In this document: one piece after another, positions 22,746-24,354 of the stretch
How the letters are laid out: each line of letters starts with the position of its first letter
Position numbering within the stretch: position 1 is the first letter of the stretch
Assembly (NCBI GenBank): GCA_963707025.1
Contig: CAVPOM010000001.1
Span: 24,601-88,600 of the forward strand
From: an uncultured Verrucomicrobiae bacterium
GTDB lineage: Bacteria; Verrucomicrobiota; Verrucomicrobiia; Limisphaerales; Palsa-1400
Length of the DNA: 64,000 nt
Reading direction: 5' to 3'
Notes under the pieces: model-generated
Databases searched by the model: none
Told to the model about the DNA's origin: nothing
What the model saw: the letters and a program-made list of their open reading frames with translations, nothing else
Translations under genes and position numbers: made by a program

Positions 22746-23290
22746 TTAACCAGCCGGACGACCTTGCCCCGCAGTGGGTGCAGGCGATTTAAAGCCGGTG
22801 CCGGCGGGGATGAGTCGTCCGACCATGACACATTCCTTGAACCCGTTCAGTGTATCGCACTTGCACTTGGCGGCAGCTTCAGTAAGAATTCTTGCGGTGT
22901 TCTGAAACGAAGCGGCACTGAGAAATCCCACGGCGTGTTCTGCGGCCCGGGTGATTCCCATGAGATGGGTGCAGCTTGGGCAGGCTGTCCGCCCTTGCTT
23001 ATCACCGTCTCGTTCTGCTTCAAAAACTCCGACCGGTCCGCTTCTTGTCCTCGCTCAAGTTTGGTGTCTCCGGCATCGGTAATAGGCACCCTGCCAAGCA
23101 TCTGCCGGGCGATGATTTCAATGTGTTTCTCGTGGACAGTTACACCTTGCTGCCGGTAAGTTATCTGCACATTTTCCACCAGTTTCTCCTGGAATTCCAG
23201 TGCCCCGACTTCCCGAAACAATTCATGGGGATCGAATTTGTCTGCCGTTAATTTCTGGCCCTGGGCAACATGTTCCCCGTTGCTTCCCAC
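22746..23290 (-). CDS. Diverged RNA polymerase beta-prime C-terminal region, frameshifted near 22963; possibly fused to PilT
   Basis: PHELF...[25 protein letters not shown] and GITRA...[18 protein letters not shown]...[10 protein letters not shown] are collinear with the RpoC C-terminus. Confidence 0.8.
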
Positions 23291-24354
23291 TCGGCCAATT
23301 TTTGCATGACGGTGGTTGGGTCCTGGGACTTGTTGATGACTTCCTCACGCGAAATGATGCCCGCCTGGAATTTCTCCATCAGATTGCCGTCCCGGGTGAC
23401 CATCCCGTATTTGGCGCCCGTTTGAATGTCCGATTGGATGCGGAAAGTCTTGTTGTCGCGTATGAGCGCAGCCACCCCGGGCGTGTTGATCATGATTTCA
23501 TAGACGGCGATGCGCCCCGGCTTGTCAATGCGGGGAAGCAACAGTTGTGAAATGACCGCTTGCAAGACGGTGGACAATTGGATGCGGATGGTTTCCTGCT
23601 GGGTGATAGGGAAGGCGTTGACCAGACGGTCAATGGTTTTGGCCGCCCCGGTGGTGTGGAGGGTGCCAAAGACCAGATGGCCCGTTTCCGCCGCCGTGAT
23701 GGCCGCTTCCATCGTTTCCAAGTCCCGTAATTCACCCACCAGGATCACGTCTGGATCCTGCCGCAACGCCCGGCGCAAGGCCTCGGCAAAACTGGGCACG
23801 TCAATGTGGACTTCGCGCTGCGTCATGACGGCACTTTTCGGCTTATGATAGTATTCGATTGGGTCCTCAATGGTAATAATATGGGCGTCGTCACGTTCCT
23901 CGTTGATGATGTTAATCATCGAGGCCAGGGTCGTGGTTTTGCCCGAGCCCGTCGGGCCGGTGACCAGCACCAAGCCGCGCGGCTTGTGCAGCAGGGTGTT
24001 GATAGTGTGCTTGGGCAGGCCGATTTCATCCACCGTCAACAGCTTGGTGGGAATCTGCCGCAGGACCAGGGCGAAGTTGCCCTTTTCCTTGAAAGCGCTG
24101 ACCCGGAACCGGGCTGCGTCGCCGAAAGCGAAACCGAAGTCCGCCCCACCGTCTTGGCGCACATGTTGGAGGTAGTCCTCGGAGGTGATGCTGCGCATCA
24201 GTTCATCGCTGTCCTCCGGACGCAGGGGCGGCCCCTCGACGCGCTGGAGAACGCCGTGGACACGGATGACGGGTGGAAAACCGACGCGAACGTGCAAGTC
24301 GGAGGATCCCTCGGACACCATCAACTGCAACAGGTCAGACATGGAATACGTCAT
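23248..24354 (-). CDS. pilT: PilT/PilU-family type IV pilus retraction ATPase
   Basis: SDLH, RFRV, GPTGSGKTTT, TIEDPIEY, LRQDPDVILVGE, AETGHLVFGTLHT and the AIRNLIRE-like VAALIRD. Confidence 0.93.
   Translation of the reverse strand: MTYSMSDLLQLMVSEGSSDLHVRVGFPPVIRVHGVLQRVEGPPLRPEDSDELMRSITSEDYLQHVRQDGGADFGFAFGDAARFRVSAFKEKGNFALVLRQIPTKLLTVDEIGLPKHTINTLLHKPRGLVLVTGPTGSGKTTTLASMINIINEERDDAHIITIEDPIEYYHKPKSAVMTQREVHIDVPSFAEALRRALRQDPDVILVGELRDLETMEAAITAAETGHLVFGTLHTTGAAKTIDRLVNAFPITQQETIRIQLSTVLQAVISQLLLPRIDKPGRIAVYEIMINTPGVAALIRDNKTFRIQSDIQTGAKYGMVTRDGNLMEKFQAGIISREEVINKSQDPTTVMQKLAEWEATGNMLPRARN

What the first reader, a model, noticed from the sequence alone, without database searches (positions are those of the whole stretch)
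22746..24354. PilT ATPase apparently fused to a diverged RNA polymerase beta-prime C-terminal region
Seen: a complete pilT overlaps sequence encoding about the last 175 aa of an RpoC-like chain. Adding one G to the G4 run at 23275-23278 (minus strand) and one C near 22963 gives a single 536-aa ORF reading ...[15 protein letters not shown]...PILMGITRA...[10 protein letters not shown]. The RpoC part keeps its motifs but differs at normally invariant sites (FQNT for FQET, KECV for KENV), so it is not a fresh copy of the housekeeping gene. Single-base indels are common in this window. Inference: a mobile-element chimera, possibly an RNAP-interacting decoy or regulator on a hexameric ATPase, or a decaying recombination product. 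I know of no described PilT-RpoC fusion.
Basis: partly seen in the sequence, partly recalled or inferred. Interest (0 to 1): 0.72.

Follow-up and report, generated by a model that had tools for sequence, protein, structure and literature searches.

The report
Remnant of island-borne RNA polymerase subunit
This is probably not a working PilT–RNA-polymerase fusion: a normal pilus-motor gene has been joined out of frame to the broken tail of an extra, divergent RNA polymerase beta-prime gene, which a rare family of mobile DNA islands appears to carry without its usual partner subunit.

Summary
In detail: pilT (368 aa) runs into about 178 codons of RpoC C-terminus lying in two other frames. The fusion reading is poorly supported. 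The junction parses without an added G (pilT ...TGG GAA GC | AAC GGG GAA = RpoC N-G-E). The window's genes show about one coding frameshift in 18 kb against relatives. No fusion homologue was found. FQNT and KECV are shared with relatives, so they are inherited, not decay.
The tail belongs to a divergent clade of beta-prime derived from Verrucomicrobial RpoC. Four intact clusters (1109–1386 aa) keep NADFDGD, lack SI3 and have changed the sigma-binding residue R275. One intact member (L246) lies tail-to-tail with the sister of this window's tRNA-Leu integrase, with no rpoB in front. A second broken copy (L248) has the same neighbours.
Best reading: the island once carried a whole lone rpoC, and an accessory block with an orphan pilT replaced about 85% of it. 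PilT is probably still functional; the tail is a relic. The interest lies in the intact element, which may swap its beta-prime into host RNA polymerase. That step is inferred, and context is seen for only one intact copy.

The parts
21287..21373 (-). tRNA-Leu(CAA), integration target
   Evidence: ARAGORN. Of the 29 closest integrase loci from other genomes, 26 show a tRNA-Leu beside the integrase.
21334..21373 (-). att core: 40 bp of the tRNA 5' half, repeated exactly at G000 C3:355479-355518, 231 bp from the end of C3
   Evidence: The C3 copy is preceded by the same flank (GGCTTGGGA) as the tRNA of G003, so it is the other end of the island (the contig join is inferred).
21454..22740 (+). Tyrosine integrase, 428 aa, intact
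   Evidence: PF00589 E 5e-19. Sister to the integrase of L246 (73.5% identity, SH-aLRT 97) among 31 sequences.
22746..22961 (-). Last part of the divergent rpoC remnant (…SAASFQNT…[16 protein letters not shown]…stop), tail-to-tail with the integrase, 5 bp apart
22962..22964 (-). One-base gap (frameshift) inside the remnant, at the PI-L-[LM]G motif
   Evidence: Real decay is more likely than an assembly error (P of one error in 535 bp 0.03-0.09); not settled without reads.
22964..23281 (-). First part of the divergent rpoC remnant ([12 protein letters not shown]…), 80% identical to P0001, 56-59% to P0003, about 50% to housekeeping RpoC
23279..23284 (-). Junction: pilT ...TGG GAA GC | AAC GGG GAA rpoC; out of frame as it stands; a shared AGC microhomology is possible (inferred)
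   Evidence: DNA homology to 8 of 8 fetched pilT loci ends at 23282. N 13 of 91 against T 3 of 91 at this RpoC column; P0003 has N, P0001 has H.
23248..24354 (-). Orphan pilT, 368 aa, intact ATPase with a replaced 11-residue tail ([10 protein letters not shown] after WEA)
   Evidence: TIGR01420 above cut-off. Branch dN about 0.02, dS about 0.28. 90% cluster with five normal PilT proteins of 369-399 aa.
24355..24437 (-). Upstream region shared with orphan pilT copies of G008 and G010 (L194, L196)
25194..64000 (.). Rest of the island in the window: DUF2950, a lipoprotein (26300-26860) whose homologue also neighbours orphan pilT in L194, P-type ATPase, sigma-70 region 2 protein with Ser/Thr kinase, DUF6573, RadC, two IS transposases, NikA/MobC
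   Evidence: GC 57.9% against 61.2% left of the tRNA.

Best explanation
The locus is the scar of a rearrangement in an integrative element. (1, shown) The element sits in tRNA-Leu, with its integrase at the att end. (2, shown in relative L246, inferred for this copy) Elements with this integrase carry, tail-to-tail with it, a full-length divergent rpoC with no rpoB in front. (3, inferred) In this lineage an illegitimate recombination joined an accessory block ending in an orphan pilT to the last ~178 codons of that rpoC and removed about 85% of it, including the catalytic site. (4, shown in the assembly) The join is out of frame: pilT stops 11 codons past it. The remnant has no promoter or start of its own that I could identify and carries a further frameshift. 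So the cell makes a near-normal PilT retraction-type ATPase and no PilT-RpoC protein. (5, inferred, for the intact element) The lone beta-prime has the catalytic, zinc, bridge-helix and trigger-loop motifs but a remodelled sigma-binding coiled coil. It most likely assembles with host alpha2-beta into a hybrid polymerase that no longer uses the host primary sigma normally and serves element genes. Such a gene would be costly to the host, which fits its loss in 2 of the 3 copies seen in context.
For: The junction parses as is, and pilT homology ends exactly there in 8 of 8 loci. P0001 continues RpoC-like (LLVRH) upstream of the junction position. The local error rate is low: about 1 frameshift in 18 kb; pilT and integrase on either side (2,391 bp) are intact, P 2.5e-10 at the noisy-patch rate; that patch is insertion-dominated (57 single insertions to 14 deletions), whereas both events here are deletions. 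The remnant groups with P0001, P0003, P0016, P0375 and L246 in one clade (SH-aLRT 100) inside Verrucomicrobial RpoC (C-terminal tree 100/99). L246 has an intact 1200-aa rpoC convergent with the sister integrase and no rpoB in the 7.1 kb seen upstream. L248 has tRNA-Leu, an integrase stub and a shattered rpoC of the same type. NADFDGD is present in 4 of 4 intact clusters and SI3 is absent; R275 is changed in 4 of 4 (L, V, V, Q) and kept in 22 of 22 housekeeping sequences (role of R275, E295, A302 from passages of PMC8321222). No PilT-bearing protein among the top 120 of 7,941 longer relatives of P0001.
Against: No reads cover the site, so neither break is verified, and this assembly has noisy patches that can be short. 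The remnant is still well conserved: it differs at only 1-2 of about 51 otherwise invariant columns, and its excess of private changes over P0001 (15-16 against 6-8) is not significant (p 0.08-0.15; 10 against 9 with a housekeeping outgroup). This fits recent breakage but also continued function. P0001 begins within four residues of the junction, which may be a contig edge or may mark a real gene start. The N-versus-T odds are only about 4:1. Integrase adjacency of an intact gene rests on one contig (L246), of which 11.9 of 25.4 kb were seen; the contexts of P0003, P0375, P0462 and P0001 are unknown. E295 is kept in 2 of 4 clusters. Long branches may inflate the clade's support.
Confidence: 0.72

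Rival explanations
1. The remnant is expressed on its own as a ~180-aa C-terminal beta-prime piece from GTG 23290 (translationally coupled to pilT); the second frameshift is an assembly error. It could act as a decoy for partners of the beta-prime C-terminus, or be the tail half of a split rpoC.
For: A GTG-started ORF begins at 23290. P0001 (181 aa) starts at almost the same column. The remnant is well conserved. One error in 535 bp has P 0.03-0.09.
Against: The GTG comes from pilT's own GAG TGG codons, no Shine-Dalgarno-like run lies before it, and its first codons are not RpoC-like. All four intact clusters are unsplit, and no N-terminal half is in G000. P0001 lies on a 1,265-bp contig and may be cut.
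Confidence: 0.09
2. The pilT-rpoC junction is an assembly chimera (a misjoined long read), and the element really holds a complete lone rpoC.
For: The assembly has raw-read-like patches, is 88% complete, and no reads are available.
Against: No other part of the divergent rpoC is in G000. Island-type cargo runs on from pilT to the contig end, and the matching att half-site lies at the end of C3, which fits one continuous island. Both flanks are error-free.
Confidence: 0.08
3. One reading: a real in-frame 536-aa PilT-RpoC(C-terminus) protein, hidden by two single-base assembly errors, acting as an RNAP decoy or regulator on a hexameric ATPase.
For: The join falls at the end of PilT's conserved core and near a domain start of RpoC. 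Both edits are in short homopolymers. Both halves are well conserved. The -1 frame is open for about 20 codons upstream.
Against: P of two errors is 0.0005-0.004. The added G turns N into a rarer T. No homologue was found: top 150 of 3,035 (23 of these scanned with Pfam), top 120 of 7,941, no genome of 400 with DNA homology crossing the junction among the 150 matches listed, none among all fetched proteins. No slippery site distinct from ordinary pilT copies is seen, and recoding would be needed twice.
Confidence: 0.06
4. The tail is an old, neutrally drifted copy of the host's own rpoC, with no special family behind it.
For: The clade derives from Verrucomicrobial RpoC.
Against: It is 71% identical to P0001 and 60% to P0003 but 52% to the genus housekeeping protein, and shares their signature residues. 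Intact relatives 50-80% identical to each other keep all catalytic motifs.
Confidence: 0.03

Closest known systems
PilT/PilU family type 4a pilus ATPase (NCBIfam TIGR01420)
   Same: Full-length match above cut-off, Walker A and B intact, purifying selection.
   Different: Stands outside the pil operon, like the extra copies in G008 and G010; the last 14-19 residues are replaced.
Bacterial RNA polymerase beta-prime (RpoC, TIGR02386)
   Same: The remnant matches model positions 978-1144 of 1147. Intact relatives have all five Rpb1 Pfam domains and NADFDGD.
   Different: The window holds only ~178 aa in two frames. Intact relatives lack SI3, have a short C-terminus (6-17 residues after GTG against 30-85), have R275 changed and, in L246, no rpoB in front.
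Duplicated rpoB of actinomycetes, e.g. rpoB(S)/rpoB(R) of Nonomuraea gerenzanensis (PMC5431353; abstract and outline seen)
   Same: A second copy of one large subunit gives a second form of RNA polymerase in one cell. This is the best precedent for how a lone beta-prime could work.
   Different: That is beta, not beta-prime. Here the copy is ~50% diverged and lies beside the integrase of a mobile element.
Phage-encoded multi-subunit RNA polymerases: mReC Caudovirales (PMC7481178; passages seen), jumbo-phage RNAPs (PMC7598289; search listing and start of abstract only), YonO (as mentioned in PMC7481178)
   Same: A mobile element brings RNAP catalytic machinery.
   Different: mReC encode both beta and beta-prime and branch deeply; YonO is a highly divergent single subunit. 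This clade nests inside its host phylum's RpoC, and no beta was seen. Best phage-collection hits to P0375 were under 60%: of the 30 listed of 39, whole-cell-type rpoC at 41-49% or Rhizobium/Vibrio-phage-type at 26-31%.
tRNA-targeted integrative (mobilisable) elements with tyrosine integrase
   Same: att duplication of the tRNA 5' half, integrase, MobC/NikA, RadC, IS elements.
   Different: Cargo of a core transcription subunit next to the integrase: seen in the window, L246 and L248, but in 0 of 29 other related integrase loci (1.5 kb flanks).

Membership tests
Natural PilT-RpoC fusion protein | One open reading frame across the junction | tested here: not met
   Three frames, stop at 23248-23250; two assembly errors unlikely; reads unavailable.
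Natural PilT-RpoC fusion protein | Fused homologue in another genome | tested here: not met
   None. One search scored only the 7,999 best word-sharing candidates and warns that a blank is weak evidence.
PilT/PilU (TIGR01420) | Whole-protein score above curated cut-off | tested here: met
   432.5 against 319.1.
PilT/PilU (TIGR01420) | Walker A and B intact and gene under purifying selection | tested here: met
   GPTGSGKTT and DVILVGE read; pairwise dN/dS 0.08-0.11; branch dN about 0.02, dS about 0.28; 3 private changes at otherwise invariant sites, against 0-5 in most relatives and 12 in one.
PilT/PilU (TIGR01420) | Drives pilus retraction | not testable with these tools
   Needs complementation or an ATPase assay.
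RpoC (TIGR02386), window copy | Full length with catalytic NADFDGD | tested here: not met
   91.5 and 74.9 bits against cut-off 963.5; no other part in G000.
RpoC, intact relatives (P0003, L246/P0461, P0375/P0460, P0462) | Catalytic, bridge-helix and trigger-loop motifs and zinc sites | tested here: met
   NADFDGD, HGARKG..D.[AS]LKTA and EPGTQLTMRTFH in 4 of 4; both zinc sites in 3 of 4 (P0462 lacks its N-terminus).
RpoC, intact relatives | Sigma-binding coiled-coil residues R275 and E295 (E. coli numbering) | tested here: not met
   R275 changed in 4 of 4, E295 in 2 of 4; both kept in 22 of 22 housekeeping rows (numbering from PDB 9gdo_D, which shares E. coli numbering here).
RpoC, intact relatives | Directly downstream of rpoB | tested here: not met
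   L246: a divergent unrelated gene lies upstream, no rpoB in 7.1 kb. One contig only; the others have no context.
RpoC, intact relatives | Assembles with alpha2-beta and makes RNA | not testable with these tools
   Needs reconstitution.
Phage multi-subunit RNAP (mReC, jumbo phages) | Both beta and beta-prime encoded by the element | tested here: inconclusive
   No rpoB paralogue in G000 or in the part of L246 seen; the rest of that contig could not be searched.
Phage multi-subunit RNAP (mReC, jumbo phages) | Branches outside or deep to bacterial RNAP | tested here: not met
   Nests within Verrucomicrobial RpoC, SH-aLRT 99/97.
tRNA-targeted integrative element | Tyrosine integrase beside a tRNA plus duplicated att core | tested here: met
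   40-bp exact repeat at the end of contig C3.
tRNA-targeted integrative element | Relaxase and conjugation genes | tested here: inconclusive
   NikA/MobC at 60715-61050; no relaxase or T4SS among the 15 proteins scanned; the island runs off the contig.

The most novel reading that the evidence does not exclude
Integrative elements of Verrucomicrobiota carry a lone, catalytically intact beta-prime that replaces the host's in alpha2-beta-beta-prime. The hybrid polymerase has a rewired sigma interface and reads element promoters with an element-encoded factor: transcriptional take-over by swapping one core subunit. A prophage-like contig of another lineage (L243: lone rpoC followed by a sigma-70 region 2 gene, ParB, methylase, integrase) suggests that this arose more than once. 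The window holds a broken copy of such a gene.
Probability: 0.4. Interest if true: 0.88.

Novelty: new variant of a known kind. Interest (0 to 1): 0.6.

Why it matters
The fusion itself probably matters little: it is a scar. What it points to may matter. rpoC is treated as a universal single-copy gene, and the known extra polymerases are either duplicated rpoB or complete phage enzymes. A mobile element that supplies only beta-prime, with the active site kept and the sigma-binding surface changed, would be a new way to redirect or poison host transcription. It is directly testable by reconstitution, and it would show which parts of beta-prime set promoter choice. It is also a pitfall for rpoC-based binning, completeness scores and phylogeny in Verrucomicrobiota. 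Searches of the open-access library returned no description of such an element or of a PilT-RpoC fusion; subscription papers were not searched.

Tried and rejected
Reads: one run listed, share 0.06, no RNA holder listed; its contigs do not cover 21501-23504, so there is no evidence either way on the breaks.

Scans for the divergent clade: P0001 peptide patterns found nothing in metagenome, genome or viral contigs. The SI3-less motif found 0 viral loci, 0 of 401 class genomes and 8 metagenome loci. Of these 8, L246 and L248 belong to the clade and L243 is a separate lone rpoC. L242 and L245 sit behind rpoB; L244, L247 and L249 look like housekeeping genes of other phyla. These five were set aside.

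Second copies in relatives: none among 40 relatives, 30 family genomes or 400 order genomes (best identity 55%). The 10 genomes with two matches held SI3-containing or contig-split housekeeping copies; a 36% hit in G077 is a fragment at a contig end without integrase or tRNA.

rpoC or pilT beside 29 related integrases: none within 1.5 kb. Phage and plasmid collections: no hit at 60% or above. Relative-rate test for decay: not significant. ESM Atlas for the gene upstream of the L246 rpoC: no usable hit. The rest of the L246, L243 and L248 contigs is not held, so an rpoB further away was not excluded. Earlier scan findings: nothing relevant. PMC12153180: term search only, nothing relevant.

Programmed frameshifting was considered and rejected: the CAA AAA run is ordinary Gln-Lys, also in normal pilT copies, and two events would be needed.

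Full report
1. What is in the sequence. On the minus strand a 368-aa ORF (24354-23248) is a PilT/PilU ATPase above the curated cut-off. Overlapping its end, in a second frame, and then in a third frame from about 22961 to a stop at 22746, lies the C-terminal part of RpoC, model positions 978-1144 of 1147. Directly downstream and convergent is an intact tyrosine integrase (21454-22740), then tRNA-Leu(CAA). Forty bases of the tRNA 5' half recur exactly 231 bp from the end of contig C3, behind the same flank that precedes the tRNA in relative G003. The window from 21334 to its end is therefore most likely one island of at least 42.9 kb (join across the contig gap inferred); it carries RadC, NikA/MobC and IS genes. 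The nearest named RpoC proteins are Verrucomicrobiota; I infer the host phylum from that.

2. Are the two breaks errors? The assembly is patchy. The host rpoBC region shows 82 non-triplet gaps in 8,873 aligned bases against G003, with 57 single insertions and 14 single deletions. This window is not like that: seven non-redundant segments of about 18 kb hold one net coding frameshift (I left out two redundant alignments and two under 80% identity, and other gaps were intergenic or compensated). At that rate two errors in the 535-bp remnant have P 0.0005, or 0.004 at three times the rate; at the noisy rate the intact pilT and integrase on either side have P 2.5e-10. Short noisy patches cannot be excluded, and no reads cover the site. 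The first break needs no error at all. DNA homology to all 8 pilT loci fetched ends at 23282, after TGG GAA GC. The next bases AAC GGG GAA read N-G-E in the RpoC frame, matching H-G-E of P0001 and N-D-D of P0003. The G4 run is simply Gly plus the first base of Glu. Adding a G gives T, seen in 3 of 91 RpoC sequences at that column against 13 for N.

3. The pilT half. It is 77% identical in DNA to the host operon copy but 89% to stand-alone copies in G008 and G010. Those genomes each hold three close copies: one in the pil operon and two orphans in accessory regions. One orphan (L194) shares the upstream region and a neighbouring lipoprotein gene with the window. All end normally about 14-19 residues after WE[AD]A. 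The window's branch has dN about 0.02 and dS about 0.28; three private changes include L321R. It looks like a working PilT with a swapped tail.

4. The rpoC half. A search of 1.84 billion representatives put P0001 first (80%) and a full-length 1386-aa protein, P0003, third (59%); the second hit, P0002, is a repeat-containing fragment at 41%. P0001 shares FQNT and KECV and is RpoC-like upstream of the junction column, so it is not the same chimera. FQNT is also normal in Patescibacteria (118 of 120 loci). No PilT-bearing protein appeared among the top 120 of 7,941 longer relatives of P0001; the tool rates such a blank as weak. P0003 and P0016 lack the SI3 insertion of host RpoC. A motif across that deletion found 8 metagenome loci. 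L246 encodes an intact 1200-aa RpoC tail-to-tail with an integrase 73.5% identical to the window's, the same layout, with a divergent unrelated gene and no rpoB in the 7.1 kb seen upstream. That integrase is the sister of the window's among 31 (SH-aLRT 97). L248 holds tRNA-Leu(CAG), a 48-codon integrase stub and a shattered rpoC of the same type. The window remnant, P0001, P0003, P0016, P0375 and L246 form one clade (SH-aLRT 100) nested in Verrucomicrobial RpoC (quick search, long branches, the window row fills 13% of columns). The clade is rare: no member in 400 order genomes, the motif in 0 of 401 class genomes, and no rpoC beside 29 related integrases. G334, flagged unpublished, counts only in the order tallies.

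5. What the intact gene looks like. Four 90% clusters (P0003; L246/P0461; P0375/P0460; P0016/P0462) keep NADFDGD, the bridge helix and the trigger loop. All lack SI3 and end 6-17 residues after the last GTG motif, against 30-85 in housekeeping proteins. The coiled coil that binds sigma is remodelled: the R275 position is L, V, V or Q, and E295 is changed in two, while 22 of 22 housekeeping rows keep both. Passages of PMC8321222 state that R275Q, E295K and A302D impair holoenzyme formation (I saw this secondary account, not the original study). Keeping the active site while diverging to about 50% argues for a maintained catalytic role (inference; no dN/dS was possible without DNA).

6. How it most likely works. 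In this genome: PilT is made and stops at 23248; the rpoC tail is a relic left when an accessory block replaced about 85% of the gene (0.72). Against this: the tail is still well conserved and its rate excess is not significant, and P0001 starts close to the junction. That leaves a stand-alone tail (0.09), a misassembly (0.08) and a hidden in-frame fusion (0.06) open. In intact elements: beta-prime has no active site without beta (established knowledge), so a lone copy must pair with the host's. The likeliest product is a hybrid core with altered sigma use that serves the element; a decoy that soaks up alpha2-beta is the main alternative. Nothing here shows assembly or activity. Two of three copies seen in context are broken, as expected of a costly cargo, though three is a small sample. 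L243, a 40%-GC prophage-like contig, has a lone 1268-aa rpoC followed by a sigma-70 region 2 gene; it branches separately and keeps R275 and E295.

7. Against what is known. The pilT is a member of TIGR01420. The island is an ordinary tRNA-targeted element. The tail is not a member of RpoC in any working sense. The intact relatives work, I infer, like the second polymerase form of actinomycetes with duplicated rpoB (PMC5431353, abstract and outline seen), but concern beta-prime on a mobile element. They differ from mReC phage polymerases, which have both subunits and branch deeply (PMC7481178, passages seen). Six searches of the open-access library returned no account of a lone rpoC on an integrative element or of a PilT-RpoC fusion; I judged the listings by title and start of abstract, read no supplements, and subscription journals were outside the search.

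8. Verdict. Observation partly confirmed; fusion protein unlikely; the locus is a broken marker of an apparently undescribed element family with a lone divergent beta-prime. Novelty: new variant of a known kind. Interest 0.6, resting on the family and not on this copy. The subunit-swap reading has probability about 0.4 and would deserve about 0.88.

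Noticed in passing
L243:6935-15642: Prophage-like 40%-GC contig with a lone 1268-aa rpoC (GADFDGD, SI3 absent) followed by a sigma-70 region 2 gene, ParB-like gene, C5 methylase and integrase; no rpoB in the 20 kb seen; branches apart from the Verrucomicrobial clade. Possibly an independent origin of the same strategy.
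   Followed up: partly
L246:5444-7012 (P0464/P0465) and P0003 residues ~500-610: The gene divergent from the L246 rpoC holds a ~100-aa domain 35% identical (E 7e-9, pairwise) to an insertion inside P0003's beta-prime. The domain also occurs in several G000 proteins, so the link may be chance. No Pfam or Atlas name.
   Followed up: partly
G000 C6:393208-406845 and C11:86980-90271: Noisy, insertion-rich patches in the assembly (about 1 gap per 100 bp) break the host rpoB and rpoC; apparent pseudogenes there are probably artefacts.
   Followed up: partly
L190, L191, L194, L196 (G008, G010): A lineage of orphan pilT copies outside the pil operon, two per genome, in accessory regions; the copy in L190 is frameshifted.
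   Followed up: partly
window ~598-601: One-base insertion with neighbouring mismatches splits the UvrD/PcrA-like helicase gene (name from recall) relative to G003 and G004; probably a local assembly error.
   Followed up: partly
window 31295-42736: A 2626-aa secreted-looking protein without Pfam match and three neighbouring large ORFs inside the island.
   Followed up: no
window 43049-47274: Sigma-70 region 2 gene followed by a Ser/Thr kinase-WD40 gene that seems broken after 46110.
   Followed up: no
P0375/P0460 versus L246, C-terminal 170 aa: P0375 is 81% identical to L246 overall, but its tail is 61% identical to P0001 while L246's is 47%: mosaicism, suggesting recombination among these rpoC paralogues.
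   Followed up: no
G000 C12:233283-234605: A second, 43%-identical integrase beside a tRNA-like sequence; G003 has tRNA-Phe at the matching place.
   Followed up: no
L040-L159: Patescibacteria housekeeping RpoC commonly has SAASFQNT in place of FQET/FQDT (118 of 120 motif loci).
   Followed up: yes
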